A stretch of DNA of 64,000 nucleotides. It comes from Lingula anatina (Eukaryota > Animalia > Brachiopoda). Within the stretch, counting starts at the first letter, position 1. The number at the start of each line of letters is the position of its first letter. Below the pieces are notes generated by a model that was not told the DNA's origin, searched no databases, and saw only the letters and a list, made by a program, of their open reading frames with translations. Location: the NCBI GenBank assembly GCA_051362555.1, contig CM120640.1, forward strand, positions 47,284,788-47,348,787. Direction: 5' to 3'. The position numbers were made by a program, and so were the translations under genes. This document shows positions 35,101-64,000 of the stretch, one piece after another.

Positions 35101-36621
35101 AGGAAGATTCACACCAGGCATCTATTAACACATGATATCAACTAGTTAGGAAGCAAAATTCAAATAAATATAAACAATTTATAATAGAGAAAATGAATAA
35201 GCTCTATAAACCAAGCTTTTCCTTTCTTGATGGTTAGCTTTTGATTTTTTTTTATTTTTTAGATAATGATTCTTTACATCAGGGTTTTGATCTTATATAC
35301 ACTCAATAACTGCTTTCATCAAGAGAGATAAAGCTTTGATAAGTACTACACAAAAACATACATCTGTACAAAAAAGGTTACAAATTCTGTTTTGCACCTT
35401 TCTGCAGCAACTGCATGCCCCAATTCATGGAACAGAGCACACAGAAGTAAAGTGAGTAAGTAATACAGCATTTGACTTAATGGGATATTCATTCCTAACA
35501 TCTGAAAATCAAATGTCATGCACACAAAGTTATTCAAAACCAAATAAATCTGCAACACTGAACGAGTTAATACATTTCCATTATATTTTATCACAAAGGT
35601 TAAATAAAATTAAGCATATGGTTTGTCTTTATTGCACAATTGTACCATTTTCCTATATACATAAATATATTTTAATAATAATAATAACTGGCTTTTCATA
35701 ATCAAGTATGAAACATTACATTCAAAAACATTTCAAATGCTTCATCTTATAAAATACAACTGAAAGCATTATCTTTGTTTTCTTTACTTCAACCTACCAC
35801 AGGAGTTAACACTTGTTGCTCTATGTGTTGTCTTGTTAGGGTATTGTATACCATGAGTGTCAACAGGCATACAGACAGCAACATGGCGACCATTCCAAAG
35901 ACAACTCCTGCAGTAAACCAAGTCCGAAGATATCTTGGTTTCCACTGCCCCATCCTTAGAAACACTCGGTTCAGACATTTTGTATACCATCTTATTTGTC
36001 CAACTGATAATGAGATTCCTGTCCTCTCTAAAAACTCAATGTATGGTCTAGCTGTTGACTTGTTTGACTAGAAAAAATAATACAAATTATCAAAACAAAC
36101 CAAAAAAAGACCACAGTTCACAGTTTAAGCTAATTAACCAATGTATGATGTGGTATAAATCACTTCTAAAGTCTATTTTATCTATTTAAGAAAATACATT
36201 GATGTAATGTTTTTATGAAAATAAAGTATACCTGTTATAGGCCTATAATAAACTGCCTGATATAACTGAGTGATACATGCATTTGGGTATCATTCACAAG
36301 GAACTGGCATAAAATCATTAATAAAAGAATAGGCATGGCTGCATGCAATACAAAGTACTATGTATTTTTTCATAATTCATAACCAGGGAATGTTGCACAA
36401 TCTGGGGAAAAAATGAAGTTTTTACTTTTACATTTTAGACAGTCCCTTTTACTGGTAGGTACTCTAGTTTGTAATCAAGACATGCACTGCACCTCTGCCT
36501 CACACCAAAATATACATTAACAATAATTTAACTATTCATTTGTAGTTACCTTTAAGAATGCATCAAGAAGATAAACAGATGACCAGGTCCCCAGGATCAC
36601 TGCAATCCCAGCAGGTTGCAT
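32112..36621 (-). CDS. MBTPS2: Membrane-bound transcription factor site-2 protease (S2P, peptidase M50), about 489 aa
   Basis: Exons 36621-36550, 36067-35798, [35501-35398 or 35121-35018], 34603-34357, 34078-33895, 33584-33490, 33213-33015, 32628-32553 and 32334-32112 (1470 nt). Motifs HExGH, YPGAFV, CAGVWHN, a Cys-rich lumenal region and [10 protein letters not shown]. Confidence 0.95.
32335..32552 (-). other. U12-type (minor spliceosome) GT-AG intron, last intron of MBTPS2
   Basis: 5' splice site GTATCCTTT, branch-site-like TGCCTTTAC about 10 nt before the AG, and no polypyrimidine tract. Confidence 0.8.
35018..35121 (-). CDS. MBTPS2: MBTPS2 exon 3b (canonical-looking HExxH exon)
   Basis: ttaatag|[35 protein letters not shown]|gtagag, 104 nt, phase 0 to 2. 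Confidence 0.9.
35398..35501 (-). CDS. MBTPS2: MBTPS2 alternative exon 3a (divergent copy of the HExxH exon)
   Basis: tttcag|[35 protein letters not shown]|gtgcaa, 104 nt, phase 0 to 2. Confidence 0.75.
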
Positions 36622-43700: not shown

Positions 43701-46700
43701 TTACTGTACGTGTGGAAAGTTTTCCAAATCTTCCATTATATCGGGACTGTCTTGAATATCTAGAGAGGTAGAATGCTTGTTCAGTGAGATGTGCAGCGGG
43801 TTTGAAGATCTAGGTACCACCGTGATATCTCGATCCAAAGCATATCTTATCAAAATGGACGCCGGACTTGTGCGGTACTTTCTAGCTGCCAGCATAACCA
43901 TATCGCTATTGAGAATTGGATTATTTGTTGTTGAACCATCCTTCACCCACCCGAACCCAAGTAAGCTATGAGCCATGAACCGAATACCATTAGCGTCGCA
44001 AAATTTCCTCAACTTCGTATTTCTCTTTATTAAATCAAATCTTGCTTGGAGAACTGAGACGGGAACTGTGGCCTCTGCCATTAGCTCCTTCAGCTGAGAA
44101 ATTTTAAAGTTACTGACACCAATAGAACGAATGCTTCCCGTTTTGTTCATTTCTTCCATCACCTTCCACGATTCCTGCCACGTGCCTCGATTTTCGTCTG
44201 CGTCACATTCGAACCCCTTAGTATCACAAGATGGCGCTTTGATAAGAACCAAATCAATATAGTCTGTCTTCAGTCTTTTCATTGATCTCTCAATGGACAT
44301 TCTCGTTGCTTCTTTGCCCAAATTCTTAGGATGGACTTTGACAATCACGAAAACATCTTCTCGTTTACAGTATTCGTTTTCTGAGAGGATGGAGCCTAAA
44401 GTAGTCTCACTCTCGTCCTCTGGGTCTGTGTCAAAGAGCCTGACAAGAGAAACCGTGAAAATACTTAGGCCTACTTAAGATTTTCCTTGTATGTATATAA
44501 GTGAAATCGAGTACATTGTTTCACTTTAGATTTTGTGAATTAAGTATTTAATCTTAAAGTTAAGAAAATAATCATTGCAAATTTCATATTCCGTTATTGT
44601 GTATAGGAATTTTGAGACTTTCTATACTGGTGAAAAATTATTTAATGTCTATACAGCTATTTACCTGTTCCCAATCTTCAGTGCGTGTCGAATACCTCTT
44701 TCAGCTTCATCTGGTGTCATTCCTCCAACACCAAGGCCTAACACGGGCACTAAAATGGGTTTACAGATATCTTATCTATTTTCATTATCAAACAAATTTG
44801 TCTAAAACAAATGTTTAAAGCTGCCCACTGATTTAAACCGCCCAGAGTGATCCCCACACCACCCCCATGATATTTACGTACTAGAATATCCACTCTTCAA
44901 TATTATATCTTCTTCTTCACCATGGCCTAACACGGGCACTAAAATGGGTTTACAGATATCTTATTTATTGTCATTATCAAACAAATTTGTTTAAAACAAA
45001 AGTTTTTAAGCTGACTACTGATTTTAACCGCCCAGAGTGATCCCCACACCACCCCCATGATATTTACGTACTAGAATATCCACTCTTCAATATTATTTCT
45101 TCATCTCTGTCGGTTCTGCTTTCCTGCTCAATGTCCATTGCTTCTGGCTTGAGGTATTTGTACTTGGAAAAAACCTCCCTGATGGGCATATCGTCTATGC
45201 GAATGTTACATTTTATCTCTGGAGAGAAAAAATATTGTTCAACGCCTTTTATTTAGAATACATTAACATTTAACTGCCCTTGACCAACAAAAAAGATAAA
45301 ACACAATATGTATTCTATAAAATAATTAAAAAGAAACTGTATCTCACCTTCAGGTTTCTCTTCTCGAAGCTTGATGCAGTTGTCAATATAAACAGAGTCG
45401 TTAGACGGTGGTGTGTTAAACATACAGAGAAGAAAGTCAATGAAGATGGCTATGGCGATATTAGGCGGTCCTCCGTGTGTTCTCACTTGGTGCCACCAAC
45501 CCTCGGGGACGTATATAATGTCACCGGGTTCTAGTATGGCCTTGTAGATGGCGATTTTGGACACGTCGGGGTATTTTTGCAAGTCAACCGCTTCTTGATT
45601 AACGGGTGACATGCCTGGAATATATGTATTTACTAGAGAATATCTTCAAACTTAAAATTAATGGTCTATAAATTAAACTACCTTCGAAAATTAAAAGAAC
45701 ACTAATGAACATTCCCATTAATACCTCAAAGTAACGGTATCTTTTTTCAAAAAAAGTTTTGTCACCTTGTAATGTCTTTTAAACATATAACAGTTTATCT
45801 GTTCTCAATCTTTCTTTGTTTTTGAAGTTTTTGAAAAGACTTTACAGATAATAACGCATCTTACCATCGTGGTGTTCAAATTCATCCGAGTACAGGTATT
45901 TTCCGTCGCTAGGAGTGGTCAATATCCACTGCCGCCCACCGGTCACTTGGGCAAAGATGGTCTCTGTGACGTCGAGATGAATGTCGGTGCTTGACCAGCC
46001 CGAGTTGAAGAAAATGGCAACCTGTTTCAGCTAAAATGATAAAGTAAAAGAAGAATAACACGCGATGCACCGAAGAAAGCTGAAGTTTCCACATTTTGCA
46101 TTCCATCTATTTAATTAAATCCTGCCTTCCGGTGTTCATTATCTACATTTTACTAAATTGACCTAAGATTCACTTACAATTTTCAAGTATTCATCACATG
46201 CTATGTAACCTGGAAAAGTGAGGTCTTCTGCCATTTCTTCACACACAGTGGAATCCATATATATCTTATGCTCTCTGTAATTACTGTAACAAATATATGA
46301 ATGAATAAATATATAAGTTAAAAAAAACAGACATTCTGACTTACCATATTCATAAAAGATAAATCAATAAACCCTTTTCTTGATACACTGCCAAAATGTG
46401 CTTAACAGGATTAAACCAACAAACTGCCAAGGAATTACAATGAAATGTAACAAAATAATAATGTATCCACAAATTTCACAAAGCATATATAAATCTAGGT
46501 GCTGGGTGAACCAAAATAAATTCAAAAATATGTTTTACCTGTGCCCAGTGACCTATGACCAGAGGTCACGTGCAGCAGGCTTCTTGAAATAAGTTTCATT
46601 ATAAATCTGTAAATCATCATTTTTTGGACAATGCATAGTTGATGTGTTAAAAGAACCAAACAAAAAACAGCTTCATACATTTAAGAAAGACAAATTTCTC

Positions 46701-47201
46701 AAATTGTTAAACCTCTAGCAGAAGAGTGATCAAATCCAGAGAGAGAGAAAGATAACAGACAGATGCTTACTCCAAAAAATCAGCCATAGACATCATCATA
46801 TGTGCCGGGTGATACGCATCGGTGATGTTTCTCCACATAGACAGAAAAGTACGGTGACCAAATCTCTCCCTCAAATAGTCTTCGTTCTTCCATTTTTCCA
46901 CTGCAGGCCAGTGTTTTAGTGCACCTTTGACCACCAAAGGCACAGACTTCCGCATGTAGTCCCTATAAAATACCTCGGGTTCGGGAAAGTGGTCCAGTGT
47001 TGGAATTTCCGTCAGCTCATCGACTTGTTCACCGAACTTTTCCATATGGCCCTTCAGGTTACTATTTGTGTCTTTATTTTCGCCACCAAAACTTGCAGAT
47101 AAATCTGGGAAATATTCCCCGACATTTGTTCCCCAGAAACCCCACGCTATGGCTAAAATAAGTGGCACAGCACCCGCGTAGAACTTTGCCTTGGTCTCCA
47201 T
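43701..47201 (-). CDS. Signal/anchor + JmjC (cupin_8) + aldo-keto reductase-like fusion protein, paralog 1 (646 aa; 665 aa with the extra 57-nt exon)
   Basis: Exons 47201-46771, 46283-46178, 46030-45865, 45614-45348, 45218-45072, (44938-44882), 44749-44665 and 44439-43701, with concordant phases. JmjC motifs PLVVKGALKHWPA, HLD and PGDIIYVPEGWWHQV. AKR motifs LKSGYSMPVLGLG, LKTDYIDL, SIGVSNF and VVPRS. Confidence 0.88.
44735..45101. repeat. Tandem duplication (about 190-bp unit, 2 copies) of an intron plus flanking exon ends in paralog 1
   Basis: GGCCTAACACGGGCACTAAAATGGG at 44735 and 44924; CTAGAATATCCACTCTTCAATATTAT at 44881 and 45071. Confidence 0.92.
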
Positions 47202-48047
47202 TTTGTGAAAGGCTGCCTTTATGCGATGTAAAGGATGTCTTCAGCAGTGTTATATGTAGAGCAATGTAAGTTCATGTAGTCGGTGCAGTCGAGGTCCCAA
47301 AAAGGTTCCGCATCAATACCGCTTTTATGTGTGAAGACAGAAAATTCTTTGCCCGCAGTGAAGTGCATTCTAAACACCATTCGGGCATATTCAAGGGGCC
47401 GTTTTGGGAACTAAATTTATTTGGATGTATAGGTGGGTGCAACAGCTTTAATGGGGCTATGTGGTTGGTTGTGGATGTCCATCTCTTTTTGATATTTATT
47501 TACATACTGCCAGTAACTGTGCAAGTAATTTGGAAGGGGATACATAAATATCAATTTTTTTCAAGGCAAGTGTCAACGGTCCACTAAAAATAGATATAGT
47601 TATACTATACTAAAAGGCATAATATAAGTTAATTTTTATCATTCTTTTAATTGAAGCATTGTATTATGATAACCCTTTTTTATGATTTTGTTAGTTTAGA
47701 GATCATTTAGTCGAGCGATCCTTGTATTTTACGGGTCAATGATTGTAGAGTGGTAGGCAGTAGTCGCACTAGACCAGGGAGAGGGGGAGCTACAAGTTTT
47801 GAGACAAGCCCACTCATATTTATCGTTCATTTTTATTAGTGAACTTCAGAAATATTTGTACATAAACGGCAATACTTTAAGTTATTATTTAATTAATTTT
47901 TTATTATTCGTGTTTATATATTTATTATTTTAGTTTACAAATTATATACTTATTTGACACAAGCCAGAAAATTATTCCTCAACGTACGTTAGCTTGTGGT
48001 CGTAATCCTTCGTGAGACTGACTTGAATACATGCTGTTACTAAAACA

Positions 48048-48238
48048 GGCTTTACACTGGACGGCGTCCTTTCTGCGTCCTTAGTACGATCATGATGCTG
48101 GAATCGCTGTGGTCGTTGAAAGGAGGCACAAGCATCGCTTTGGTTGCAAAATAAATGCTCAATGATCGGCCAGTTGGCGGCACACAACTGGGCCGTACTA
48201 CGGACGAAGAAAGGATACCGTCTAGTGTAAAAGGGGCT
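48048..48238. mobile_element. MITE with about 25-bp imperfect terminal inverted repeats (PIF/Harbinger-like by inference)
   Basis: TTTACACTGGACGGCGTCCTTTC (48051-48073) pairs with GAAAGGATACCGTCTAGTGTAAA (48209-48231). The interior is GC-richer than the AT-rich flanks. Confidence 0.65.
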
Positions 48239-49625
48239 TTGCTGACAGCTAGGTGGTAGCGCGCCAGGACCCTATTGTAAATGACAGCTTCTGTAAAATA
48301 ACTGTAAGACTGATATTCAAATAGCAAGCTAATGAACATTTTGCTCTTGTTTTGGTTTGGTTTTCAACATATGATATCAGACGATGTGAGAAATAAATGC
48401 TATAGAAAAAAAAACTCATGGGTTCGCTAAAACAATTAACAATTTTATTATTTTTGTAGTTTTATCGTATATATATTTAATGTATTCAAAATATACATTT
48501 TCTCATTGATACTTTGAAGAATGAGAAAAATAAATAAAAACCCTACACGACCCCTTGGTGTGTTATTCCGAAATGATGTTCCTTTTCACACAAAGCTATC
48601 ATAAAAGGACAAAAGAGTCCGCTCACCGTGACGGGCACATTGACAACAGGACATAATGCTTATAATGTCTAATTCCTTGCTACAACTAATCTATTGTTAG
48701 TGCTGTGATAAAGCCACTTGCACAACATTATTTCAACATGTAACAAAAACATACACCTAAGCTTCTTATATATATATGTCGCGTTGATGTATATTCAAAT
48801 TTTCTTAAGCTGTGATGAATCATCCGCTACCTTCATCCATTAATGTTATTTAAATTTATTATCATTACTCTTTAGTTATGAATAATACAGGTCAAGCTTT
48901 TCATCAAAAGCTAATTGTTTAGTCTCCATTCTATGCGGTGGGGGAAAAGCTATGACACTAACTCTTGAAAATCTGCCACGGGCGGTTCTGATCTGTGATT
49001 TTTTTTCATAAGACATTAAAGATGGGTATGCTGTATCATTAATTATCATTATTATTCTTCTTTCTTTTATTTAAAAGCGATTGTTTTCATTTTATTAATG
49101 CATTCCATTGCATGAGTTTCAAAGAAGTGAAAAGTTCATTTTAAATAGTCCTTCCAAAGACCTATATCCAATTTTAAAATAAGTGAACCAGAATTAGGAA
49201 GCAGCGTGCAATGTGTCTGGAAACAAACACAGTACGTTTCTTGTCCTTTTTCATGCTGTGCTTATATTGTTAACATGTCAACTCAAAATAAAGCGCACTG
49301 CAAGGCAAACTTTAGGCGAGTGAAACACTACAACGCTTTGTGATTGCGTTTCGATATTTTCCCAGTTATGAAGCTCATTGTCAAATTAACGTCACCTTCT
49401 CATGGCGGATATTTGGAATTTATTTTTCGAATTCTTATTGTCCCCATCACAATTTCCTATTGTTAATCGCCATAACAGAATTTCAAAATTTTAATTTCAT
49501 TTCGTTTTATTTACAATTAATGTAGTTTCAACCACAGCGTATTTAAGCAAATCTATAACTTTATTTAAACAGAAAAAGCTTTCCGCCACGAAAGAATGCC
49601 GGCATGTACTTTAAAGTTCCAAAAG

Positions 49626-52600
49626 TCATGGAATATGTGGGAAATTGTCCAAAGCGTCAAATGCATCTTTACTTTCACGAAGGTTCATTATCAGAGAATT
49701 TTTGTTCAGTACAATGTGTAGGCGGTTTGATGACTTAGGTACCACCGTGATGTTCTTTTCCAAAGCATATCTTATCAAAACTGAAGCTGGACCAGTACGA
49801 TAAAATCTAGCTGCAAATCCAACCATCTGGCTGTGTAATATTGGGTTAGTTTTTGAAGATGATTTCGCCCATTTAAAACCAAGTAAGCTATGAGCTATAA
49901 ATCGGATACCGTTCTTGTTGCAAAATTCCCTCAGCTTGGTGTTCCGTTTCATCAAATCAAATCTTGCTTGTAAAGCTGAGACTGGAACAGTGGTTATCGT
50001 TAACAGTTCTTCCATTTGCAAGATATTAAAGTTACTGACCCCGAGAGAACGAATGCTCCCTGCTTTACTCATATCTTCAAGTGCCTGCCACGATTCCTGC
50101 CATGTGCCTGGATTCTCGGCTGCTTTGCAGTCGATCATCTCCTTATCACACGATGGAGCTTTTATCAAAATTAAATCTATATAATCAGTATTCAGTCTTT
50201 TCATGGACCTTTCCACTGAACTCTTCGTGGCATTTCTGCCCAAGTTCTTTGGATGAACTTTGGCAATCACAAAAACGTCCTCTCGCTTGCAGTATGGATT
50301 GTCACCCATAATGTAACCCAGTGTTGCTTCGGTTTCATCTTCTGAGTCCGTATCAAAGAACCTGACAAAATATTAACAAAATATGATTCACGAAATATCA
50401 TTCAAACTTGAAATTTGATTTCAAAAATTGTTTTTATCTAGTCACGGAAAACATAAGTTCCCAGAAAATAACTCTATACGAATATAAATGATCCATACCT
50501 GTAGCCGTGCCTCATTGCATGGCGTATGCTTCTATTGGCCTCTTCTGGTGACATCCCGCCAAGACCGAGACCTAGCGTAGGCACTAGAATGGAATTTGAA
50601 GAAATATAACAAATGTCAAGGAAAACACACAATGAACAAAACGACCAATGCACAGCTTTAAAACAATGGCAATATCAAGATTAACGTAAATGTCATATTT
50701 TCTTCCCTTTGAAAATGACAGATTTGCAACTTTTAGAGCACGGCGAAATGACGCGCCAAGTTCGCTACAAAATGTTCAGGTTAAAATCAATGCATCAGTT
50801 CCACCGTTAATTTTGTAATATGGTTCTACTTACTTGAATATCCACTTTTCAGCGGTTGATACTCAAATATGTCTTTTCTAAATTCCGGAATTGTGAATTT
50901 CATAGCTTGTGGTTTGAGATGACTATAATTATCATACACCTCTTTGACCGTCATTCCATTCAAAGGCATGTTACACTTCATCTCTGATGTAAGGAATATA
51001 TACAAAAGTTACTCTCTACCAGAGGTCCTTTTAGCTGTTACAAAATCTGTTAAAGGACGGATTTGGTAACTGCTAGAACAGCTAGAGCCTCTGGTCGAGA
51101 GTAAGCAAAGGCAATGATTTGTTACTCTGTAAGGAACAGAAACAAACTGATTATATTTAAATGAATATCTATGTGGTGGGGCTTAGACGATATTGTGCTG
51201 CTTACTGATATTAAATCGTCATCAAAACTTTAAAAAGTATTATCTTTCAATAATGTTGAATCTGAATTAATAACAAGTGCCATTCGTGTTAACTTTGGGC
51301 CCATTATACATGTATTATGTTCAAGTGTTAAACAAGTTTATTAACTATACACTAAAGAAGGCAATCATAGTTTTTCGTTTGTCAATAGATATAGCAAAAT
51401 GATGTTAATCCCTTCCCATTTTTCTACTCGTCGACTCTATTGCCATTCAATACTGCGTGTTATAATACAAAAAAAAATCAGTTGGAAATGTTTACTTCAG
51501 ATAACTTAATTTTCAAAAAAAAAAAAAAAAAAAATTAAAGAAACTGCCTTTCACCTCTGGGTTTGTCTTCTCGAAGCTTGATACAGTTATCAATGAAAAC
51601 CGAATCGTTAGAAGGTGGTGCATTTTTCAAACAGTGCAGAAAGTCGATGAAAACGGCAATGGCAATATTCGGTATTCCACCGGTCACCTTTGCTTGGTGC
51701 CACCAACCCTCAGGGACGTAGATAACATCACCCACGTCCAGTGTGGCATTGTAGATGGCGATTTTAGACACATCCGGGTATTTAACCAAATCTATTGCTT
51801 CCCAGTTCACCGGGGAAGTTCCTGGAATAAATATGTACTTATGAAAAATAAAGGCGTTTCACCATTTCTTAGTGACGTTCTTTTAAGAATAAAAAATGTG
51901 TGGAAGGTTTATCATGAACATAAAAAGTACAAAAGTAATCAGAAAAGACCGTCTTTACGTTTTACATTTTGACACATTTCAAGATTGCCTATGACACCAC
52001 ACTGGCGCAAAGTCCCTTGTTTAAATTTATAATTTTCGCCTTAGCATTTAAGTCATAAAAAGTATCATTTGCTTCGTATGAAATCCATGTATCTTTTGCC
52101 ATTATGAACCTCGTGGCGGGATCTTAAATTCAGATTTTACATCAATTTTAATGCTTTAAAGCAAAGTATATTCAAAGCATGTAATACATAACTGCACAAT
52201 AACCCGACTTACTTTTTTATACGAATAATTCGTCCATTTGCTTTAAAGGATCCCATACCCCAGGACGGAATTAATTTGAACTTCCATGAAATACTTACTG
52301 TAAAAAGTTGTTCACATTCTTTTAAATGAAAATATTTTGTTATTGGACTAAGAATACAAAAAGAGAACTATAACCAGAATGGTTTGGAAATTCATCCGAG
52401 TACAGGTATTTTCCATCAGTTGGAGTGGTCAGCAGCCATTGCCGTCCCCCGGTCACTTGGGCAAAGATGGTTTCTGAGACATCAAAGTGGATATCACTTC
52501 TTGACCAACCAGAATTGAAAAATATGGCTATCATCTTTAACTGTAAATAAAATGATTCAACAAAATTAAACATTAGATTTACAAGTCACCAATTGTTTAA

Positions 52601-53976
52601 GTATATTGTAAGTATACTGTTCAGGTATAATTTGGATCTCAAGAAAAAAGCCAGGTAAGCAATCGATAAAAGAATTAGGAATTTTAGAAAAAGGTATGAA
52701 TGCGGCAAAGTTATACAACGATAGATCTACAACGCTACTTACCATTTCCATATACTCGCCGCAAGCTACAAAATCTGGGAGAGTGAGGTCTTCTGCCATC
52801 TTCTCAGAAATTAAAGAATCCATGTAAACCTTTCTTTTCTTAAAATCACTTAAAGAAAAGAGACATGCCTTAGTACAGAATTGAACGAGAATAGTTCACA
52901 CATTCAGAACTTACCTAAATATGTGTAGAGTAGCAGAGATGTACATAAAAAGCAGTTTAATTTCAGTGTAGTCCCCATAATTTTGTTTATGGATGTGGGT
53001 ATTTGAATAAGAGAAATTGGTACGCACTGAACCTAAAGTTAAATGTAATTTAACAGTCCGTGTATTCCAAATTACATATTTCTTTCATACTTGAGACGTG
53101 TACTGATTTATGACGCTGTGTAAATTACAGTTCACAGACAATGAGAGCGAAAGTGTGACGGAATCACCGTGGTACTCGTTTGACTGTCTATTTTTATTTT
53201 ATTTATTATTATTTTTTTTTTGAATCGACAGTCAAATGTTATTGCGGAGTAATCCATGTTTGTATCTTGTATTTTCGCCAAAATTTAACAAAGCAACAAC
53301 CCAAACAACTGTGTATGTTTTGTTGCTTTAATACTGATTGCACAAAAATTACGACCCTTTATTTTCATAGAAATTAAGTTCGGCGTTTTGTTTTGTATAC
53401 ACTCTTACAATAACATCAAAATTTACAAATATGTCAATCAATTCTAAAATATATTTTCCATGAAGTTTATAGCTAATATATGTTTCGTCGAATAAACGTT
53501 ACGACTATTTCGCAAATATTGAGGAGATTTGATACTCACTCCAGAAAATCTGTCATAGACATCGGCATAGTGTAAGAGTGATATGCATCTGTGATGTTTT
53601 TCATATTCACCATAAATACACTATCACCAAATCTCTCCCGTAAGTAGTCCTCGTTTTTCCATTTCTGAACAGCAGGCCAGTGTTTTAGGGCACCTTTCAC
53701 CACCAGCGGCACAGACTTACGCACATAGTCTCTGTAAAACACTTCTGGGTCGGGGAAATAGTCAAGAGTAATGATATCATAAATCTTCTCGGCTTGATTG
53801 CCAAATTTTTCCATATGGCCCTTTAAAATATTGTTGGCAGTTGTAGGGGTGGAATCTTCTTTCGTAGACGAGGAAAATCTGGGGAAAAACTCTCCAATAT
53901 TTGGGCCCCAGAAAACACACGCTAGAGCTAGGAAAACTGGAAAGACTCCGGCATAAAAATGGGTCATGGTCTCCAT
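49626..53976 (-). CDS. JmjC + AKR-like fusion protein, paralog 2 (648 aa, most divergent)
   Basis: Exons 53976-53540, 52848-52743, 52540-52375, 51821-51555, 50983-50834, 50583-50499 and 50361-49626. Exon phases are the same as in paralog 1, with HFD...WWHQ and SLGVSNF. Confidence 0.88.
51009..51104. mobile_element. 96-bp fold-back (hairpin) mini-element in intron 4 of paralog 2
   Basis: Outer stem TTACTCTCTACCAGAGG / CCTCTGGTCGAGAGTAA and inner stem TAGCTGTTACAAAATCTGT / ACGGATTTGGTAACTGCTA. Confidence 0.7.
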
Positions 53977-55348
53977 ATTGTCTCTGACCGCCTGCTATAT
54001 CTAACAAGCTGAAATGGCAAACGATAGACCTAGCATACCTGGCCACTGCAATGGGCGACCTCCATTGTCCGTTTATCATTAAGTTGTCACTTGCCAAGGG
54101 TATATTTTTGGACCCACATATGTGCTTAATGTAACGCATACATGGCCAAGGTGCTGTCACACCTAGTGTAAAAGAGGTACCTAAGTCGTAATGCCACTCC
54201 CATAGGCCCAATAGTCGAACCCTGCAATGCTCTTTCTTGTAAGCTTTTTTTACATAAATGCCCTTTTTAAGGCTATTGAAGTAAAATAAGCTTGGTTGCT
54301 ACTTACGAGACATAAAGCCGAAGCCGCCAATTTGTGAGGGAAAATAGAAAAACAGCCTAATGTCGACATATACACTTTATCTGTGGCTCTAGTGAATGTA
54401 TTTTCTGTCGAAAGAACACAGTAGGATAATTGACTACATCCTAGCATGTAACTGGTACTAAAAATAAAAATGGCCACCAAAACAAACAACAGAAGGCAAA
54501 GAAGAACCGCAAGATCAGTATATTTCTAGTATACTCAGTATGTCCGCCTTTGATTTTTCTATTCATTGTGATTTTCGTTAGCCATTATTTAAAACTATCA
54601 TTATACGCTTGTTGGACATTCAACCTGTTGAGGGGGTGAGCCACCTAGTAGTCGAGTTGTCATTTCCAAGAGCTCTATAGTCGGACCATGCTATGTTATT
54701 TCCTATGAGTAAAAGAAAGAATCTTGTTATTTGGGAGAATCTGGCTGATATGGCGCGCCATTCCTCTGGGGTGGTCGGGCAGTTCACTTCTACCCACTTC
54801 TTTATATGGACTGAGATGAGGTAGACTGTGTTGGTTCATTGCTCTATCACTTTGCATAATAATTCAGTTTGTGAAAAGGGTTGTTGTATTTATTGTTTCA
54901 AACTTTAACGAGACCGAAACAGTCCAGTTACTCAATGAAATATTTTACTATATTATTCTACCGTTCGAACTCAATTGTAAACAAACATCCATGTACATAT
55001 TCCATATGAATTATTCTGAATATCAAAAATGAATACAATACCATTACGTTTTAATGCTACATGTATACCGGTTGTTTTCTTCACAAGCAGTTCTCAAACA
55101 TTACTAACACAGTCGAGACATATGAGAGCAATAGAAGATAGGTATACTATAGGTATGTAGAAGTTACAGTGTAACTGTTGATTTACAATAATTAAACATA
55201 TCCTGAATAAAACCACTGCAAGTGTTGACTGTTTTATGACAACACGATAAACTAGACAGCCCCTCTAGCCCCTACTCCACGCACCCCAAAAAAGAAAAAA
55301 GGCTACTGTCAAACAACTTGATTCTAAAGCTATTCGGCAAAAATATAT

Positions 55349-58300
55349 TTATGGTACATGTGGGATGTTTTCCAAATCTTCCAATATTTCGGGGCTGTCT
55401 TGAATATCTAGAGAGGTAGAAAACTTGTTCAGTGCGATATGCAGCTGGTTTGAGGATCTAGGTACCACCGTGATATCTCGATCCAAAGCATATCTTATCA
55501 AAATGGACGCCGGGCTTGTGCGGTACTTTCTAGCTGCCAGCATTACCGCACTGCTACTGAGAATTGGGTTATTTGTTGTGGAACCATCCTTCACCCACCC
55601 GAACCCAAGTAAGCTATGAGCCATGAACCGAATACCATTATCGTTGCAAAATTTCCTCAACTTCGTATTTCTCTTCATTAAATCAAATCTTGCTTGGAGA
55701 ACTGAGACGGGAACTGTGGCCTCTGCCATTAACTCCTTTAGCTGAGAAATTTTAAAGTTACTGACACCAATAGAACGAATGCTTCCCGTTTTGTTCATTT
55801 CTTCCATCACCTTCCACGATTCCTGCCACGTGCCTCGATTTTCGTCTGCGTCACATTCGAACCCCTTAGTATCACAAGATGGCGCTTTGATAAGAACCAA
55901 ATCAATATAGTCTGTCTTCAGTCTTTTCATTGATCTCTCAATGGACATTCTCGTAGCTTCTTTGCCCAAATTCCTAGGATGGACTTTAACAATCAAGAAG
56001 ACATCTTCTCGTTTACAGTACTCGTTTTCTGAGAGGATGGAACCTAAAGTAGTCTCACTCTCGTCCTCTGGTTCTGTGTCAAAGAGCCTGACAAGAGAAA
56101 TCGCGGAAAGGTTCTTTGGCACGTAGGTATTTGTATATTCATGGGTAACCGCATGAATGATTTATTTCTAGATCTCATTTCGCTATTGTGAATCTTATCT
56201 TCATAAAACGGATTGGACGTATTCGTTTTCTTGTACATTGTACAATGGTATACAGAAGACAGTACTTGCTTATTGATGAAAAAAGCTCTTTTAATTTAGA
56301 TATTTACCTGTACCCAATCTTCAGCGCGTGTCGAATCCCTTTTTCAGCTTCCTCAGGTGTCATTCCTCCAACACCAAGGCCTAACACGGGCACTATTTAA
56401 AAAATGAATTTACAGATAAATCATGCTCTACCATTCCCAAACCAATTTGTTAGAATCAAACGTTTTTAACCATCCATTATAGCAAAAAAATTGAAACTGC
56501 ATTTTGATTTAGTCAATCAAGGCTGACCTCCCCCACAATAAGTTCAGCCAAAAACACAGTATATACGTACTAGAATATCCACTCTTCAGTATTATTTCTT
56601 CTTCTCTGTCGGGTGTGCTTTCCTGCGCAATGTCCATTGCCTGTGGCTTAAGGTATTTGTACTTGGAAAAAACCTCCCTGACAGGCATATCGTCTATGCG
56701 AATACTGCATTTTATCTCTGGTGAGAAAAATGTAATGAAGCATAAAAGCTGAAGAAATGTGTATGACAATATTCATCAAAAGATATGGGAAACATTTTAA
56801 TATGCATGAATGCAGTTTCGTCCGCCCGTGTTGTCAAAAACACTGCATGGTGTTTCTGTCCATCCACAGGACACAGCATGTATATTTCTTATTTTGGTTT
56901 TCGATGTAAACTTCCTCAAACTACAAAATTAAGGAAAAAATTCAAAAGAAATTGTATCTCACCTTCAGGTTTCTCTTCTCGAAGCTTGATGCAGTTGTCA
57001 ATATAAACCGAGTCGTTAGACGGTGGTGTGTTAAACATACAGAGAAGAAAGTCAATGAAGATGGCTATGGCGATATTAGGCGGTCCTCCGTGTGTTCTCA
57101 CTTGGTGCCACCAACCCTCGGGGACGTATATAATGTCACCGGGTTCTAGTATGGCCTTGTAGATGGCGATTTTGGACACGTCCGGGTATTTTTGCAAGTC
57201 AACCGCTTCTTGATTGACGGGTGACATGCCTGGAATATATGTATTTACTAAATAATATCTTCAATCTTCAAACTGGTCTATTAACTGGTCTATTTCTTCG
57301 GAAATTAAAAGAACACTACTGAACATTTCCACTTGATGTAACGGAATCTTATTTCATAAAAATTTTGTCATCTTGTATTGTCTTTAAAACATGTTTTTAA
57401 AGTTGTTGAAAAGAGTGTATAGATAATGAAGCATCTTGCCATCGTGGTGTTCAAATTCATCCGAGTACAGGTATTTTCCGTCGCTAGGAGTGGTCAATAT
57501 CCACTGCCGCCCACCGGTCACTTGGGCAAAGATGGTCTCTGTGACGTCGAGATGAATATCGGTGCTTGACCAGCCCGAGTTGAAGAAAATGGCGACCTGT
57601 TTCAGCTGAAATGATTAGTGTGAAAAAAGAAAATACGACTCTGACATCGTGCATTCCATTTTTAAATTAAATCAAAATTAAATCCCGCCCCCTGCGTCTG
57701 TTTTCTACTTTTAAATGAATGAAGTCAGAGTGACATATCTATGTACTTTTCTATTCAAGAACGTTAGATTCACTTACAATTTTCAAGTATTCATCACATG
57801 CAATGAAACCCGGGAAAGCGATGTCTTCTGCCATTTCTTCAGACACAGTGGAATCCATATAAATCTTGTGCTCTCTGTAATTACTGTAAAAAAATTTAAA
57901 TATATGAGTGATAATGCAGATTTTCTAAAAATGACCCTTATAAAGAATACTGGACAGGATAGCTATCCACTGAACATCAGTTGGATAACCTTTCAAATGT
58001 AATCATGCAGTCTCTCCATCGGATTCAAAGAAAAGCATTTACAAACACAATGAAATGCAACAAAAAAATTCTTATTAAAGTTTTCATGTATGTATGTATA
58101 GAATGGAAAGAGTTTTGAATGAGGTACCAATATAAAACTTTATGTTTAGTGAAACACAGAGAAAGCAAAAACTGGTGTCAGGCCTGCGCCCTAAAGTAGT
58201 TTGCATTTAGACTCCTAAAACAAGTTACTGTAACTTTTTAAAAATCTTTTTCATACAGTTGTTGACAAAGAAAAAATGCATCATAAATGAGGAGAAGAAT

Positions 58301-58788
58301 GTGAAGAAGCATTGAGAAGATTAGGTCGTGCTGTTAAAATAAGATACAAATCCTTACTCCAGAAAATCTTCCATAGACATCATCATATGTGCCGGGTGAT
58401 ACGCATCGGTGATGTTTCTCCACATAGATAGAAAATTACTGTGGCCGAATCTCTCCCTCAAATAGTCTTCGTTCTTCCATTTTTCTACTGCAGGCCAGTG
58501 TTTTAGTGCACCTTTGACTACCAAAGGCACAGACTTCCGCATGTAGTCCCTATAAAATACCTCAGGTTCGGGAAAGTGATCCAGCGTCGGGATTTCTGTC
58601 GGCTTATAGACCTGTTCACCGAACTTTTCCATATGGCCCTTCAGGTTACTATTTGTTTCTTTATTTTCGCCACCAAAACTTGCTGATAAATCGGGGAAAT
58701 ATTCCCCGACATTTGTTCCCCAGAAACCCCACGCTATGGCTAAAATGAGTGGCACAGCACCCGCGTAGAACTTTGCCTTGGTCTCCAT
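55349..58788 (-). CDS. JmjC + AKR-like fusion protein, paralog 3 (646 aa, closest to paralog 1)
   Basis: Exons 58788-58358, 57883-57778, 57605-57440 (GC donor), 57229-56963, 56717-56571, 56392-56308 and 56087-55349. Confidence 0.87.
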
Positions 58789-59277
58789 TACGTGGCAGGT
58801 TGCTCTATTGGTCACAATACCAGAGAAGATGCTGCTGCCTTTAATTGCGTTACATATATAAAGAGAAGTTCATTTATTTGGAATTGCATAATGTTTCTCG
58901 CATCGGTACAGCTATTATGTGTATAACATAAGAACCATCTGGACATTGGTTCATATCATTTAACTTCATTGGGGCGTTAGATTAGATACAACGCCTGTTC
59001 ACACGAGGAGCAACTCAGACCTAACCAACATATTCATGCTGAACACAAGTATTCATAAGTGATGAAAGTAGAAAGCGATCCATTTCAGCTGTCTTGACAC
59101 TGAGGATGTAATACGACGGGCACCTTTGCTCTTACAATTCAACGCGCCATGCGGAACATCCTTTTACGTTTATTCGTGCGATACTCTTGATGACATAGAC
59201 GGACATCAGACTATACTGGTGCATGTTCCCACTCAGCAATCTTGTACAGTGTATCCGGCGAAAACAATCGCGAAAAC
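58789..59277. promoter_or_regulatory. Divergent promoter region between paralogs 3 and 4
   Basis: ATGs face apart with 489 bp between them. A TATA-like TATATAAA lies at about 58855-58862. Confidence 0.5.
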
Positions 59278-60277
59278 ATGGAGAACAAGGCCAAACTGTA
59301 CGCAGGAGCCGTTCCAGTCTTCCTGGCGTTAGCATGGAGTATCTGGGGACCAAATGTTGGTCAATATTTACCGCCGATGTCAACGGGTCTCACAAATGAG
59401 GTGCCAAACGACACGAGCAATTTAAAGGGACACATGGAACGGTTCGGAGAGCAAGCCCAAAAATATGAAAATCTCATTACTCTTGACTATTTCCCCGACC
59501 CAGAAGTGTTTTACAGAGACTACGTGCGTAAGTCTGTGCCACTGGTGGTGAAAGGTGCCCTAAAACACTGGCCTGCTGTTCAGAAATGGAAAAACGAGGA
59601 CTACTTACGGGAGAAATTTGGTGAAGATTTTTTTAATGTCCATTGGAGAAACGTCTCGGATGAGCACCACCCAGCCTACATTGACATGACCATGGAAGAT
59701 TTTTTAGAGTAAGAGCTCTCCCCCTTTTTTCGTCACAGCGTTGTATCAAATGGCAGTTAGTTGATGAGTTAATTATCTTTCATTGAAAACCTTTATTGAT
59801 AACTTAATGACATTTACAGTGAACTTGTGAATCAAAAATTGGTGAGATTGAAGAGTAACTCTGTACTGATCATGGCTGAATGTATTCAGGTACGACCAAC
59901 AACACACGTACCTGGGTTAATACATTTGTATCACCCGTTGAAAGCATGTTTTGCAGGTGGCCCATTCACAGCGCTGTAAATAGATTTGTGGTAGATATAA
60001 TAAAGCTTTATGTCCTGTTGTCAATATTGGTAGTCACGGTGAGCCGGCTCTCTTGTTCTTTTATGAGTTCTTGAAATGAAGAGGAAGGCTGTCTCCGAAA
60101 AGCCTGACTGGGGGACGGATAGAGTTTTCATTTTTTTATTCCCCAAAAGATTACTCACTTAGAGACATATGTACTCATAAAATGCATGAAATATAAAAAA
60201 AATAAAACTATACTTTAATTCTATTCTATATATGTAAATAAGAAAAGTGCCAAAAAAATAAAGACACTTTCAGTCCG

Positions 60278-60332
<55 letters not shown>

Positions 60333-60633
60333 GCGGATCCAGGCTTATTTGAAGGGGGGGGGGGGGGGTCGGCGGATGCGAAGCCGACCCTCCCCTCCCC
60401 CTTGTCATGGGTTCGGGGCACTCCATCGGGCCCCGAAAATTTTTGGTATTTTAGAGGGCGAACGGTGCCATTTTGTACGTTTTTAGAACAATGATTCAGC
60501 TGGTCAAAATTCTGATTTCAAGAGGGGGCCATGGGTGTGATTTTCTCCCGACACCCCCTTAAATTAGCCACTGATTGGTGTTGCAAATGGAAGACCAAGT
60601 CTGAGTATGATACTTAATTTTAATGGATGTCAT

Positions 60634-60683
<50 letters not shown>

Positions 60684-61722
60684 ATAAATTTTTTTTATAT
60701 ATTACATGATTTCGTTATATAGTACATACAGGAAAGAAAAAATCTACATGGACTCCACAGTAAGTCCAGAGATGGCGGAAGACCTCACCTTTCCAGGTTT
60801 TGTCGCTTGTGAAGGGATGCTGAAAATGGTAGGTTGCGAATGAAGCGCTGGATCTCCTTGGTGTATGCTGCATATTTTTTTCAATTCAATATAAAGAGCT
60901 AACATGATTTACCCACCAGTTTCTATAAAAATTTATTCACTTATGAGGTTAACGTTAACACAGATTCTTCCTGCTAACAAAAATATGAAAACTATGAACA
61001 TGGCGAGCGTTTGGACCTTTTTTTATTCTCAGTAACGTTTTTAGATAAGTATGTGAACAGCAAGGGAATAACTGGTTTTAGGCTTATTAAAACCTTGCAT
61101 AATGTTAAGGACTACATTGCTCAAACGGCAACAAACCTGGTAATGAACTTCACAACTACCAGGATCTAGAGAAAGAAAAAAAGAGGGGCTGCCCAGAAGT
61201 GCAAATGACAAACTTTGAATATATATTGCATTTGGAAAAGATATTTATCAGCCTGAAATACATTTAAATATAAACGTTCCTTTAACCCACAGAAAGTTTT
61301 GGCAAAAACGAAGGTCAGTTCCTTAACAGCCGAAGTTAAATTTGTTAAAAAATGTAATTAAAAAACGCATAGCCCTAAACAAATAATAGCTGTCAATTTT
61401 TGTCCTCACAATACCCAATATATATTAGGAGGGATTTTATCTATCTACCATACGTAATATTGTATACTATACCATTTTAGTAATAACTGTAATGCTAAAT
61501 GAATTATTATTATACTTTCAGCTGAAGCAGGTCGCCATTTTCTTCAACTCGGGCTGGTCAAGTACCGACATTCATCTCGACGTCACAGAGACCATATTTG
61601 CCCAAGTGACCGGTGGTCGTCATTGGATATTGACCACTCCACGCGACGGCAAATATCTATATACAGATGAATTTGCGCCCCATAATGGTTAATATTTGCA
61701 TTCTATCCTTTTTATCTTTAAA

Positions 61723-61771
<49 letters not shown>

Positions 61772-64000
61772 TTGCGGTAGCGTGTAATTCTCTCTCTCTT
61801 TCTTTCTAATTTTAAGCGAAAACTTAAATGACGTACTTCTATCTTCCAGGCATTTCCCCAGTAAACCAGGAAACAGTTGATCTGATAAAATTCCCCGACG
61901 TTTCCAAAATAGTTATTTACAATATCACACTGGAGGCTGGTGATATTATATACATACCCGAGGGCTGGTTTCACCAAGCGAGAACCAAAGGAGGGGCTCC
62001 AAATATTGCCATCGCCGTGTTTATCAATTTTTTGTTGTGTATGTGGGAGTGTCCAGACTCAGACGATGCTGAATACGTTGAAAACTGCATTAAACTCAGA
62101 GAACAGAAACCAACAGGTTTGTTTTCAAGGAAATTATACCATACTATATTAAAAATGACCCTTATAATTGGTCAAATTCGATTACACAGTGCAGTAGTGC
62201 TTGGCTGGATTTTTTTTTTTAATATTGACTTTTGATCGTGTCACAATTGGAGATTCATTGTAACATAAAAGCAAATGCAGTTAGTCTGGCAATTTTATTA
62301 AGGTGGAACGGCAAATGTGTACATCCTATATGGGGATTTACTGAATCCCGACAATCTCAATTTCAAAGTCGGCAAGCTCAAAATTACTTTACAACTGTAG
62401 GTCCACAAGCTTTTTCATTAGCAGATGACATATGTCATAAGGTATGATGAGTTGTGTCCTATGAGAACACTTATATTACACTGCCTTTACACAAATATTG
62501 CAGCATGCACCGAGAAATCAAAATGAGCAATATGTGGTATCAATTGTTTTTTTTTTTTTTTCATATTTAGATAAAGGGGAGATTTTCTGTATCACTGTTA
62601 GTGGCGCATGTACTATTTCATTAACAAGTGTGGCATTATATGCTTTTTAACGAGAAACGTGCACCGTTCTAATCCTTCAACATTATTGAGTCGCTTGTTG
62701 TATGACACTTTAGTGAGCATAGTGTAGGTGGAAGTAACATCAACTCTTTTTTTAATAATTATTTAAGACCAAGTTTTTTCTCCAAAGAAATGAATACAAA
62801 CCTTGTCAACTAATCAATACTTTTTTTAATTCATTTTTCTTTGAAAGAACTGGAGTGTAATTTTCGGATGGAAGATTTGACAGTGAGAGAGGTGCTTGAC
62901 AAATACAGTTATCTCGTACCTCCCGGTATGGTGCAGTGGAACAAGAAAGAGGAGCTCACACCTGTACTTCTTAAGAGTGGATATAACAGTATGTTCTATT
63001 ATATCATTTCACATCCTCTTATATATGAGTACATGTACTTAAAAACATACTGCATTTAATCTGTAGCCTACATACATGCGTAAAAATATTAAGTAAGTCC
63101 ATTGCAGAATTTAGTTAATTTTATTTGTATATCTCACTTCACTAGTTTGTTTACGCCAGATTATCGATAAAAGAAGGCGTTATTAGCCTACAAAATGACT
63201 TCAAATAAAAATCCTCGAGCATACGCCCCAATGGTAACAGACAACACAACGCTGCTAATTTGACTAATAACTTTTTATTGTAAAATATTTTAGTGCCTAT
63301 GTTAGGCCTTGGTCTCGGTGGAACGTCGCAAGAGAATGCAGACAGAGCTATACGACACGCACTTAAAATCGGGTACAGGTAGGCTTAAAAGCAAATATAT
63401 ACGTCATATATATGTCAAAGTTTCCATTTATTACAGATATAAACAAAAGATCTGTGCTGTGCTGGAATAGCCAAGTATTTTTCTTGTAGAGCGATTCCAA
63501 AGATTTGAAGCAAGTAAATTAATGGTACATTATACACACACATAATGCAAACAATTATCACACATCATGTTTTATATTTTTATTTACTATATTTTACAGG
63601 TTATTTGACACAGATCCAGAAGGTGAGAGCGAGGCGGTTCTGGGCTCCATTTTAGCTCAAAATCCCTATCGCAAACGCGAAGAGATTTTTGTGATTGTCA
63701 AAGTTCATCCAAAAGATTTGGGTAAATATGCCACTAAGTCGTCAATCGAAAGATCAATGAAAAGACTGAAGACAGACTACATCGATCTGGTTCTCATTAA
63801 AGCGCCATCTTGTGACACGAGAGGGTTCGAGTGTGAAGCAGACGAGAATCGAGGTACGTGGCAAGAGTCGTGGGAAGCATTAGAAGAACTGAACCGGACT
63901 GGAACTGTCCGTTCTATTGGCGTCAGTAATTTCAAAATATCTCAAATAAAAGAACTACTGAAAAAAGCCAAAGCCCCATTGTCCGTTCTTCAAGCCAGGT
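59278..64000 (+). CDS. JmjC + AKR-like fusion protein, paralog 4 (inverted; truncated by the window end)
   Basis: Exons 59278-59708, 60723-60828, 61522-61687, 61850-62116, 62848-62988, 63294-63378 and 63600 to beyond 64000. Motifs HLD, AGDIIYIPEGWFHQ, MPMLGLG, IDLVLIKAP and SIGVSNF. Confidence 0.87.
60280..60329. repeat. (CA)n microsatellite
   Basis: About 25 perfect CA units. Confidence 0.97.
60328..60573. mobile_element. Non-autonomous DNA element (MITE-like) in intron 1 of paralog 4
   Basis: GC-rich island starting CAGAGGCGGATCCAGG plus poly-G and ending CCCCCTTAAATTAGCCACTG (imperfect inverted ends). Similar ends occur at 378-453 and about 16108-16272. Confidence 0.6.
60637..60681. repeat. 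(AG)n microsatellite
   Basis: About 22 perfect AG units. Confidence 0.97.
61728..61768. repeat. (CT)n microsatellite
   Basis: About 20 CT units in intron 3 of paralog 4. Confidence 0.95.

What the first reader, a model, noticed from the sequence alone, without database searches (positions are those of the whole stretch)
43701..64000. Four-gene cluster encoding a signal-anchored JmjC dioxygenase fused to an aldo-keto reductase domain
Seen: the separate JmjC and AKR ORFs splice in frame into single ~647-aa proteins. The architecture is hydrophobic N-terminus (e.g. KFYAGAVPLILAIAWGFWG), then JmjC with HxD...H, then a Cys-containing linker, then an AKR barrel. The conserved exon sizes (106, 166, 267 and 85 nt) and phases are identical in all four copies, and no stop codon falls between the domains. 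Established: JmjC/cupin_8 proteins (FIH, JMJD5, JMJD7, TYW5, JMJD8) are Fe(II)/2-oxoglutarate oxygenases, and AKRs are normally cytosolic NAD(P)H oxidoreductases. I know of no characterised animal protein combining them. Inference: an expanded oxygenase family in the secretory pathway with an accessory AKR-fold module, possibly for matrix-protein modification or small-molecule chemistry.
Basis: partly seen in the sequence, partly recalled or inferred. Interest (0 to 1): 0.9.

Follow-up and report, generated by a model that had tools for sequence, protein, structure and literature searches.

The report
Brachiopod oxygenase fused to disabled reductase
Four neighbouring brachiopod genes each join an iron-oxygenase domain to a reductase domain that has lost two of its four catalytic residues, likely making a secretory-pathway hydroxylase of an apparently unstudied family that also occurs in sponges, corals, amphioxus and a choanoflagellate.

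Summary
The window is Lingula anatina. Four 7-exon genes splice without a stop into 645-648-aa proteins: hydrophobic N-terminus, JmjC (Cupin_8), linker, aldo-keto reductase (AKR) barrel. RNA reads cross all six introns in copies A and D and five of six in B. Expression of C is only weakly shown.

First, the fusion is old: JmjC+AKR relatives, mostly with a C-terminal beta-propeller, occur in a choanoflagellate, sponges, cnidarians, a hemichordate and amphioxus. Second, the AKR catalytic Tyr and His are absent in 12 of 12 Lingula proteins, while the tetrad is intact in 17 of 18 other relatives. The JmjC iron triad is intact in 12 of 12, and the altered AKR is under purifying selection.

Best reading (0.5): a lumenal Fe(II)/2-oxoglutarate hydroxylase of secreted proteins, carrying a non-catalytic AKR module. 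Main rival (0.22): an oxidise-then-reduce relay like poppy reticuline epimerase, whose AKR works with an altered tetrad. The substrate is unknown. My literature searches found no description. New variant of a known kind; interest 0.62.

The parts
43701..47201 (-). Copy A, 646 aa (RefSeq LOC106171383). Exons 47201-46771, 46283-46178, 46030-45865, 45614-45348, 45218-45072, 44749-44665, 44439-43701. Fe triad H197/D199/H276; AKR D404 and K435 kept, Tyr absent, His replaced by K468.
   Evidence: Model; 646 of 646 identical to P0001; all six joints in three RNA runs, stranded reads fit a minus-strand RNA; residues
49626..53976 (-). Copy B, 648 aa (RefSeq LOC106171369). Exons 53976-53540, 52848-52743, 52540-52375, 51821-51555, 50983-50834, 50583-50499, 50361-49626.
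   Evidence: 8 differences from XP_013407135; five of six joints listed in X7, little or no depth in X1, X3, X4
55349..58788 (-). Copy C, 646 aa, recent duplicate of A (94% aa). Exons 58788-58358, 57883-57778, 57605-57440, 57229-56963, 56717-56571, 56392-56308, 56087-55349.
   Evidence: introns 61-85% identical to A's and synonymous difference 0.11-0.15, far above the 1.6% heterozygosity in PMC4595640, so a paralogue and not an allele; expression only weakly shown
57230..57439 (-). Intron 3 of copy C, with a non-canonical GC donor where A has GT
   Evidence: Sequence; use of this donor not shown, since reads there are mostly A-derived
59278..64000 (+). Copy D, head to head with C, runs off the window (full protein P0003, 645 aa). 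Exons 59278-59708, 60723-60828, 61522-61687, 61850-62116, 62848-62988, 63294-63378, 63600 onward.
   Evidence: all six joints in X7, five in X9, none in X2 or X5
44729..45106 (-). Tandem duplication of about 189 bp (94% identical) covering the end of exon 5, intron 5 and the start of exon 6 of copy A. It makes a possible in-frame 57-nt exon at 44938-44882.
   Evidence: Reads joined at 44882 continue as exon 5 sequence (loose ends at 44915), so they are mis-laid exon 5 ends; no listed joint includes the extra exon. Possibly two haplotypes assembled in tandem (inference).
53624..53775 (-). Likely gene-conversion tract shared by B and D (D about 59473-59625), 152 nt with at most 3 internal mismatches between genes otherwise about 70% identical

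Best explanation
These genes are transcribed and spliced as JmjC-AKR fusions whose products likely enter the ER, where the JmjC domain would use Fe(II), 2-oxoglutarate and O2 to hydroxylate a residue of secreted proteins, while the AKR barrel, which lacks its catalytic Tyr and His, likely serves as a non-catalytic docking or regulatory module. Shown: exon structure, splicing across the domain boundary, both domains, intact iron triad, broken tetrad, purifying selection, and the wide family. Inferred: lumenal location, oxygenase activity, a protein substrate, and loss of reductase activity. History (inferred): an old JmjC-AKR(-ShK)-propeller gene with two intact sites; in the line leading to Lingula the propeller was lost, both active sites were remodelled together, and the gene multiplied in tandem, with copies differing between RNA runs.
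For: Splice joints and models. HxD...H in 12 of 12 Lingula proteins and 15 of 17 scorable others. The nearest solved JmjC domains are JMJD5 (sequence E 3e-21; Z 23.0, rmsd 2.8, 226 aligned), then JMJD7 22.0, TYW5 21.2 and FIH 20.4; that these act on proteins or tRNA is partly from PDB titles, partly recalled. AKR tetrad intact in 0 of 12 Lingula and 17 of 18 others; the exception is P0021, which groups with Lingula. Single tetrad mutations abolish or nearly abolish codeinone reductase (PMC8524200 passages). NADP-site residues have decayed in 6 of 12 Lingula paralogues. AKR dN/dS is 0.09-0.28 in all six pairs of window copies. Secretory signs: hydrophobic N-terminus in 26 of 29 family proteins; N-glycosylation sequons 128 against 85 expected from shuffles (sequences not independent); Cys at positions 173, 327, 472 and 479 in 29-30 of 30 rows; KDEL-like ends in 18 of 169 stored relatives, including amphioxus P0024. 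Reciprocal loss: P0032 and P0033 lack the iron triad but keep the tetrad; Hydractinia P0188 has JmjC+propeller without AKR.
Against: No activity or substrate is known. The four window copies keep the aligned NADP(H)-site residues S510, N511, Q532, S559, R/K611, S612 and N621, and an acidic residue at 406 is newly conserved in 12 of 12, which suits a remodelled active site. DRR, the AKR half of reticuline epimerase, is active with two tetrad residues replaced (PMC8524200). The 2-oxoglutarate-binding Lys (JMJD5 Lys336, PMC5818494) is Arg212 in 12 of 12 Lingula proteins, so co-substrate binding is altered. The N-terminal hydrophobic stretch is modest (12-residue mean 2.1-2.8), no higher than an internal strand in A, C and D, and no signal predictor was run. 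The Lingula proteins have no KDEL. The two Lingula shell papers do not mention these domains.
Confidence: 0.5

Rival explanations
1. Two-step relay: the JmjC domain oxidises a substrate to an imine or ketone and the AKR domain reduces it with NADPH, inverting a stereocentre or fixing a new modification. The Lingula AKR is a non-canonical but active reductase. This is probably the better model for the sponge, cnidarian and deuterostome forms, which keep both sites.
For: Same oxygenase-then-AKR order as reticuline epimerase, whose AKR has His and Lys of the tetrad replaced yet reduces a C=N bond (PMC8524200). Both sites are intact in 14 of the 17 non-Lingula fusions where both could be scored. 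The window copies keep the NADP-site residues. JmjC pocket residues (203, 205, 212, 214) and AKR pocket residues (406, 468) changed together in the Lingula group.
Against: DRR keeps its Tyr; Lingula has lost both Tyr and His. NADP-site residues are lost in half of the Lingula paralogues. Either domain is degraded or dropped in some relatives (P0032, P0033, P0188), so strict coupling is not universal.
Confidence: 0.22
2. The JmjC domain is an active oxygenase on a small molecule (lipid, sugar, amine or dietary compound) in the secretory pathway, with the AKR kept as a structural appendage; tandem expansion broadens substrate range.
For: Twelve diverged Lingula proteins; copies differ strongly between RNA runs; the cluster lacks the CpG depletion of its housekeeping neighbours (observed/expected 0.77 against 0.22), which suggests restricted or inducible expression (inference).
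Against: The closest solved JmjC folds are of the JMJD5/JMJD7/TYW5/FIH type; the propeller and ShK modules of relatives look like protein-binding modules (inference).
Confidence: 0.15
3. The Lingula proteins are no longer 2-oxoglutarate oxygenases: they are metal-binding lumenal chaperone or scaffold proteins in the manner proposed for JMJD8, or metal-dependent peptidases as proposed for JMJD5 and JMJD7.
For: Lys-to-Arg and Asn-to-Thr changes at the co-substrate site. JMJD8 is a lumenal JmjC protein linked to protein folding (PMC5684140 passages). Peptidase activity is reported for JMJD5 and JMJD7 (PMC5818494 passages).
Against: The iron triad is invariant in 12 of 12; Arg212 is invariant and can bind a carboxylate, as Arg does in many 2-oxoglutarate oxygenases (recalled); JmjC dN/dS is 0.08-0.17.
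Confidence: 0.1
4. The fusion is an annotation artefact: JmjC and AKR are separate transcripts.
For: Reads are at most 151 nt, so no single read spans both domains; B's exon 4-5 joint is not listed.
Against: The exon 4-5, 5-6 and 6-7 joints are read in A and D; the AKR's first hairpin begins in exon 5; the same fusion is colinear over 614 columns at 34% identity in a hemichordate and occurs on transcript-derived records of a sponge and a choanoflagellate.
Confidence: 0.02

Closest known systems
JMJD5, JMJD7, TYW5, FIH (JmjC-only 2-oxoglutarate hydroxylases)
   Same: Cupin_8 domain, same fold (Z 20-23), HxD...H triad in register with JMJD5 H321/D323/H400.
   Different: About 20-25% identity; N-terminal hydrophobic segment and conserved Cys; fused AKR; Arg in place of the 2-oxoglutarate-binding Lys336.
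JMJD8
   Same: JmjC protein with an N-terminal signal, located in the ER lumen (PMC5684140).
   Different: JMJD8 is JmjC-only. It was not in my trees, so the relationship is untested.
Reticuline epimerase (REPI; P450 + AKR fusion of opium poppy)
   Same: N-terminal oxygenase fused to a C-terminal AKR with an altered tetrad (PMC8524200).
   Different: Haem P450 rather than JmjC; DRR keeps Tyr and loses His and Lys, Lingula keeps Asp and Lys and loses Tyr and His; unrelated origin.
Canonical AKRs (xylose reductase, aldehyde reductase, prostaglandin F synthase, DkgA)
   Same: (alpha/beta)8 barrel, Z up to 34.0, rmsd 2.0 over 263 residues; most cofactor-site residues kept in the window copies.
   Different: Tetrad broken; a Cys pair in the loop after strand 4; far below the NCBIfam cut-offs. 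RefSeq names such as 'prostaglandin F synthase' and 'D-xylose reductase-like' on paralogues P0009 and P0006 are not supported by their active sites.
AKR-fold proteins with non-reductase roles (GCLM, SmbA, a Chlamydomonas radial-spoke protein, Kv-beta)
   Same: AKR barrel used as a regulatory or binding module. GCLM carries the AKR domain (PMC5411833); SmbA (Z 22.7) and a radial-spoke chain (Z 21.5) match the model. Their non-catalytic roles are recalled.
   Different: Those are separate subunits, cytosolic or axonemal; here the module is fused to an oxygenase in a likely lumenal protein.

Membership tests
JmjC/Cupin_8 Fe(II)-2OG oxygenases | Cupin_8 match above cut-off and double-stranded beta-helix fold | tested here: met
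   125.8 bits against cut-off 27.4; JMJD5 Z 23.0, rmsd 2.8, 226 aligned
JmjC/Cupin_8 Fe(II)-2OG oxygenases | HxD/E...H iron triad | tested here: met
   H197, D199, H276 in 12 of 12 Lingula proteins
JmjC/Cupin_8 Fe(II)-2OG oxygenases | Basic residue binding the 2OG C5 carboxylate (JMJD5 Lys336) | tested here: inconclusive
   Arg212 in 12 of 12 Lingula; Lys in 14 of 16 scorable canonical relatives
JmjC/Cupin_8 Fe(II)-2OG oxygenases | 2OG turnover and substrate hydroxylation | not testable with these tools
   Needs an assay
JMJD5, JMJD7 or JMJD8 orthologue | Groups with the named subfamily in a tree | not tested
   These sequences were not in the trees; the fusion family forms its own clade against 12 other secreted JmjC proteins (100/98)
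Aldo-keto reductases | (alpha/beta)8 barrel of the AKR type | tested here: met
   Pfam E 6e-43; Z 34.0
Aldo-keto reductases | Catalytic tetrad Asp-Tyr-Lys-His (PMC12562546) | tested here: not met
   0 of 12 Lingula proteins; Tyr absent from loop 405-412, His replaced by Lys, Gln or Arg
Aldo-keto reductases | NADP(H)-binding residues | tested here: inconclusive
   Aligned positions kept in the four window copies, decayed in 6 of 12 Lingula paralogues; their roles are recalled from aldose reductase
Aldo-keto reductases | NAD(P)H-dependent carbonyl reduction | not testable with these tools
   Needs an assay
REPI-type oxygenase-AKR epimerase | Cytochrome P450 domain fused to AKR | tested here: not met
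   The N-terminal domain is JmjC; no P450 family matched
REPI-type oxygenase-AKR epimerase | Oxidation then reduction of one substrate | not testable with these tools
   Analogy only
Secretory-pathway protein | N-terminal signal or anchor, sequons, conserved Cys, ER-retrieval ends | tested here: inconclusive
   Family-level signs are positive; no signal predictor or localisation; Lingula copies have no KDEL

The most novel reading that the evidence does not exclude
An undescribed ER-lumenal two-enzyme machine (JmjC oxygenase + NADPH reductase + propeller), already present in the common ancestor of choanoflagellates and animals, installs an unknown oxidise-then-reduce modification, such as inversion of a stereocentre, on secreted proteins or metabolites. 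Lingula has re-tooled both active sites together into a Tyr- and His-free imine reductase relay and multiplied the gene about twelvefold.
Probability: 0.22. Interest if true: 0.85.

Novelty: new variant of a known kind. Interest (0 to 1): 0.62.

Why it matters
JMJD8 was described as the first JmjC protein in the ER lumen (PMC5684140). This family points to a further lumenal branch, present from a choanoflagellate and sponges to amphioxus, coupled to a reductase class usually regarded as cytosolic. It implies unknown secretory-pathway chemistry in marine invertebrates. It also offers a natural set for testing: both sites intact (coral, sponge, hemichordate), AKR altered (Lingula), JmjC altered (P0032, P0033), AKR absent (Hydractinia). 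It flags misleading automatic names on some Lingula paralogues. The limit is that no substrate or phenotype is known, and RefSeq already holds most of these gene models as uncharacterised proteins with both Pfam domains.

Tried and rejected
Complex prediction of the JmjC part against the AKR part gave no verdict (score 0.01, alignment not used). The run search listed no RNA holder of the stretch; the nine runs came by species label. No whole genome is held for this window, so the end of copy D and any further neighbours were not read from DNA. A word-based search with P0021 returned only itself. ESM Atlas gave one hit at 0.77, an AKR/propeller cluster, mostly Cnidaria: a lead only; the JmjC-only Atlas query did not complete. 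Foldseek and VIA-align listed no solved chain covering both domains (best TM-score by query 0.40). Paper searches found no description of the fusion: (terms normalised to cupin8 and aldoketred); term look-ups in PMC4595640 main text and its one held supplement and in PMC13425148 main text (its supplements, which may list shell proteins, were not searched). The library lacks most subscription papers. Look-ups of earlier findings of this scan returned nothing. Rejected: the 57-nt extra exon in A as a used exon (mis-laid reads); C as an allele of A; a Lingula-specific origin of the fusion. Not shown: a single origin of the fusion including the choanoflagellate, since the quick AKR tree needs 6 label changes and leaves Stephanoeca, P0037 and P0034 outside the animal group. 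No second oxygenase type was found fused to the related AKR-only proteins; 14 of 60 scanned carry ShK.
Full report
Observation. Stop-to-stop ORFs and Pfam placed Cupin_8 pieces and AKR exons four times between 43701 and 64000, and tblastn found no further copy in the window. Splicing by coordinate gave four 7-exon models without internal stops: A 646 aa, B 648 aa and C 646 aa on the minus strand, and D on the plus strand, cut after 532 codons. Exons of 106, 166, 267 and 85 nt and all phases are shared. Of the 24 introns, 23 are GT-AG; intron 3 of C is GC-AG. A equals Lingula anatina LOC106171383 at 646 of 646 residues, which names the organism. B corresponds to LOC106171369 (8 differences) and D to P0003. 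No full-length record of C appeared among the hits.

Transcription. Seven of the nine listed runs were laid (X7 twice), each read in part (about 6-30%). On A, runs X1, X3 and X7 show all six joints; exon 4-5 has 47, 61 and 63 reads and exon 6-7 has 79, 81 and 65. Exon 5-6 reads split between the true joint (21, 22, 12) and a duplicated copy of the exon end (38, 56, 29). Their loose ends are exon 5 sequence, so both sets are the same joint. X4 hardly covers A. B has depth essentially only in X7, with five of six joints listed. D shows six joints in X7 and five in X9, none in X2 or X5. Reads on C carry A's base at 36 of 40 listed sites; a minority of C-type reads in X7 and X9 (for example 3 of 15 and 5 of 12 at 56704) hints at low expression. 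Reads are at most 151 nt, so full-length molecules are inferred from the chain of joints.

Domains. AlphaFold2 gave mean pLDDT 81 and pTM 0.73 with 13 sequences, and 87 and 0.78 with 31. The iron triad H197/D199/H276 is in register with JMJD5 H321/D323/H400 (PMC5818494 passages). JMJD5 Lys336, which binds 2-oxoglutarate, aligns with Arg212 in all 12 Lingula proteins, and the neighbouring Asn with Thr203 in 10 of 12. In the AKR, Asp404 and Lys435 remain, the loop that carries the catalytic Tyr has none, and the His is Lys468. Among 30 aligned fusions the tetrad is intact in 0 of 12 Lingula and 17 of 18 others (Corticium and Pocillopora, named later, were not in that count). The tetrad definition is from PMC12562546 (passages). 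Nei-Gojobori dN/dS for the AKR part is 0.09-0.28 over the six pairs of window copies and 0.08-0.17 for JmjC, with synonymous sites near saturation except for A-C. The altered barrel is therefore maintained.

Family. A profile search of 1.84 billion representatives (best 150 listed), with Pfam scans and cluster names, found JmjC+AKR fusions in Stephanoeca diplocostata, Oscarella, Sycon, Corticium, Nematostella, Actinia, Oculina, Stylophora, Pocillopora, Branchiostoma lanceolatum and Glandiceps, plus unnamed records. Most named animal relatives end in a PQQ-type beta-propeller, some with ShK; Oscarella and Stephanoeca have no propeller match. No named vertebrate, arthropod, nematode, mollusc or annelid fusion appeared, but only the top hits were seen and many are unnamed, so this does not show absence. 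In a careful tree of 35 JmjC domains (fragments, near-copies and the two long-branched P0032 and P0033 left out), the fusions and JmjC-propeller proteins form one clade against 12 other secreted JmjC proteins (100/98). Lingula with P0021 (100/100) sits with amphioxus, the hemichordate and two unnamed JmjC-propeller proteins (98/94). The quick AKR tree (119 rows) groups 25 of 28 fused domains with 7 AKR-only rows (93), inside a larger group of AKRs many of which have hydrophobic N-termini and a Cys pair. It leaves Stephanoeca, P0037 and P0034 outside that group, so one origin for all fusions is not shown.

Location. Twenty-six of 29 family proteins have a hydrophobic N-terminal stretch; the other three look truncated. 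Sequons number 128 against 85 expected; four Cys positions are kept in 29-30 of 30 rows. Eighteen of 169 stored relatives end in KDEL-like motifs. Against this, hydropathy alone is not decisive, because an internal strand scores as high in A, C and D, and Lingula has no retrieval signal. A lumenal or secreted, possibly anchored, location is an inference. Lumenal NADPH from hexose-6-phosphate dehydrogenase would make an ER reductase feasible (recalled).

Mechanism. The simplest reading is an active JmjC hydroxylase with a non-catalytic AKR module (0.5). Tyr and His are both gone, single tetrad mutants of codeinone reductase lose activity (PMC8524200 passages), cofactor-site residues have decayed in 6 of 12 paralogues, and AKR folds serve other roles elsewhere (GCLM, PMC5411833 passages; SmbA and a radial-spoke chain; roles recalled). 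The same paper supplies the strongest rival (0.22): the AKR half of the P450-AKR fusion reticuline epimerase reduces an imine although His and Lys are replaced. The window copies keep their cofactor-site residues and have a newly conserved acid at 406, and both pockets changed together. A small-molecule substrate (0.15) and a non-oxygenase role (0.1) remain open. Nothing here ties the genes to shell formation.

Comparison and verdict. The JmjC domain meets the fold and triad tests for the JMJD5/FIH class; the co-substrate site is inconclusive. The barrel is an AKR by fold but fails the tetrad test, so it should not be filed as a canonical reductase. It may work like REPI or like GCLM without belonging to either. 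Papers seen: passages of PMC5684140, PMC4595640 (plus one supplement searched), PMC13425148, PMC12562546, PMC5411833, PMC5818494 and PMC8524200; all others as search listings only. Searches found no description of the fusion. Verdict: real, transcribed, apparently uncharacterised; a new variant of 2-oxoglutarate oxygenase architecture with an old history and a lineage-specific altered reductase. Interest 0.62.

Noticed in passing
window 2000-43000 versus 43600-64000: CpG observed/expected is 0.22 over the upstream genes and 0.77 over the cluster, a sharp boundary that suggests gene-body methylation stops at the cluster.
   Followed up: partly
window 45935-46027 (A), matching exon 3 of C, and 61525-61617 (D): About 90 nt around the HxD motif is 96% identical between A/C and D against about 70% elsewhere: a second likely gene-conversion tract. 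Exons 3-4 of A and C are also 99% identical.
   Followed up: partly
window 48050-48183: Short repeat between copies A and B that collects reads from both strands with loose ends and an opposite-strand joint in all four runs; probably a transposon fragment. It shows no perfect hairpin by eye.
   Followed up: no
window 1091-28945 (+): Large gene with an N-terminal exon that resembles the WAVE/NHS homology region (recalled; no Pfam hit) and a 1768-codon Ser/Pro-rich ORF at 23642-28945.
   Followed up: partly
window about 34300-36100 (-) and 41500-42400 (+): Exons of a Peptidase_M50 (site-2 protease-like) gene and of eIF2 gamma; ordinary neighbours.
   Followed up: partly
window 13136-14978 and 6949-7141: Tandem repeats of about 161, 337 and 97 bp in introns of the upstream gene.
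   Followed up: no
P0048, P0054, P0056, P0059, P0065, P0087 and relatives: A large group of AKRs with hydrophobic N-termini, a Cys pair after strand 4, often ShK domains or KDEL-like ends; named members include the alga Coleochaete and the sponge Sycon. Looks like an undescribed secretory AKR subfamily.
   Followed up: partly
P0032, P0033, P0114 (unnamed records): Mirror-image fusions with a degenerate JmjC domain; P0032 and P0033 keep the full AKR tetrad.
   Followed up: partly
P0024 (Branchiostoma lanceolatum XP_066296046): JmjC + two AKR domains + propeller + KDEL in one 1380-aa model.
   Followed up: no
runs X7 and X9: Reads are mostly 95-99% identical to the window, against about half at 99% or more for X1 and X3 on copy A: a more distant population of the same species label.
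   Followed up: no
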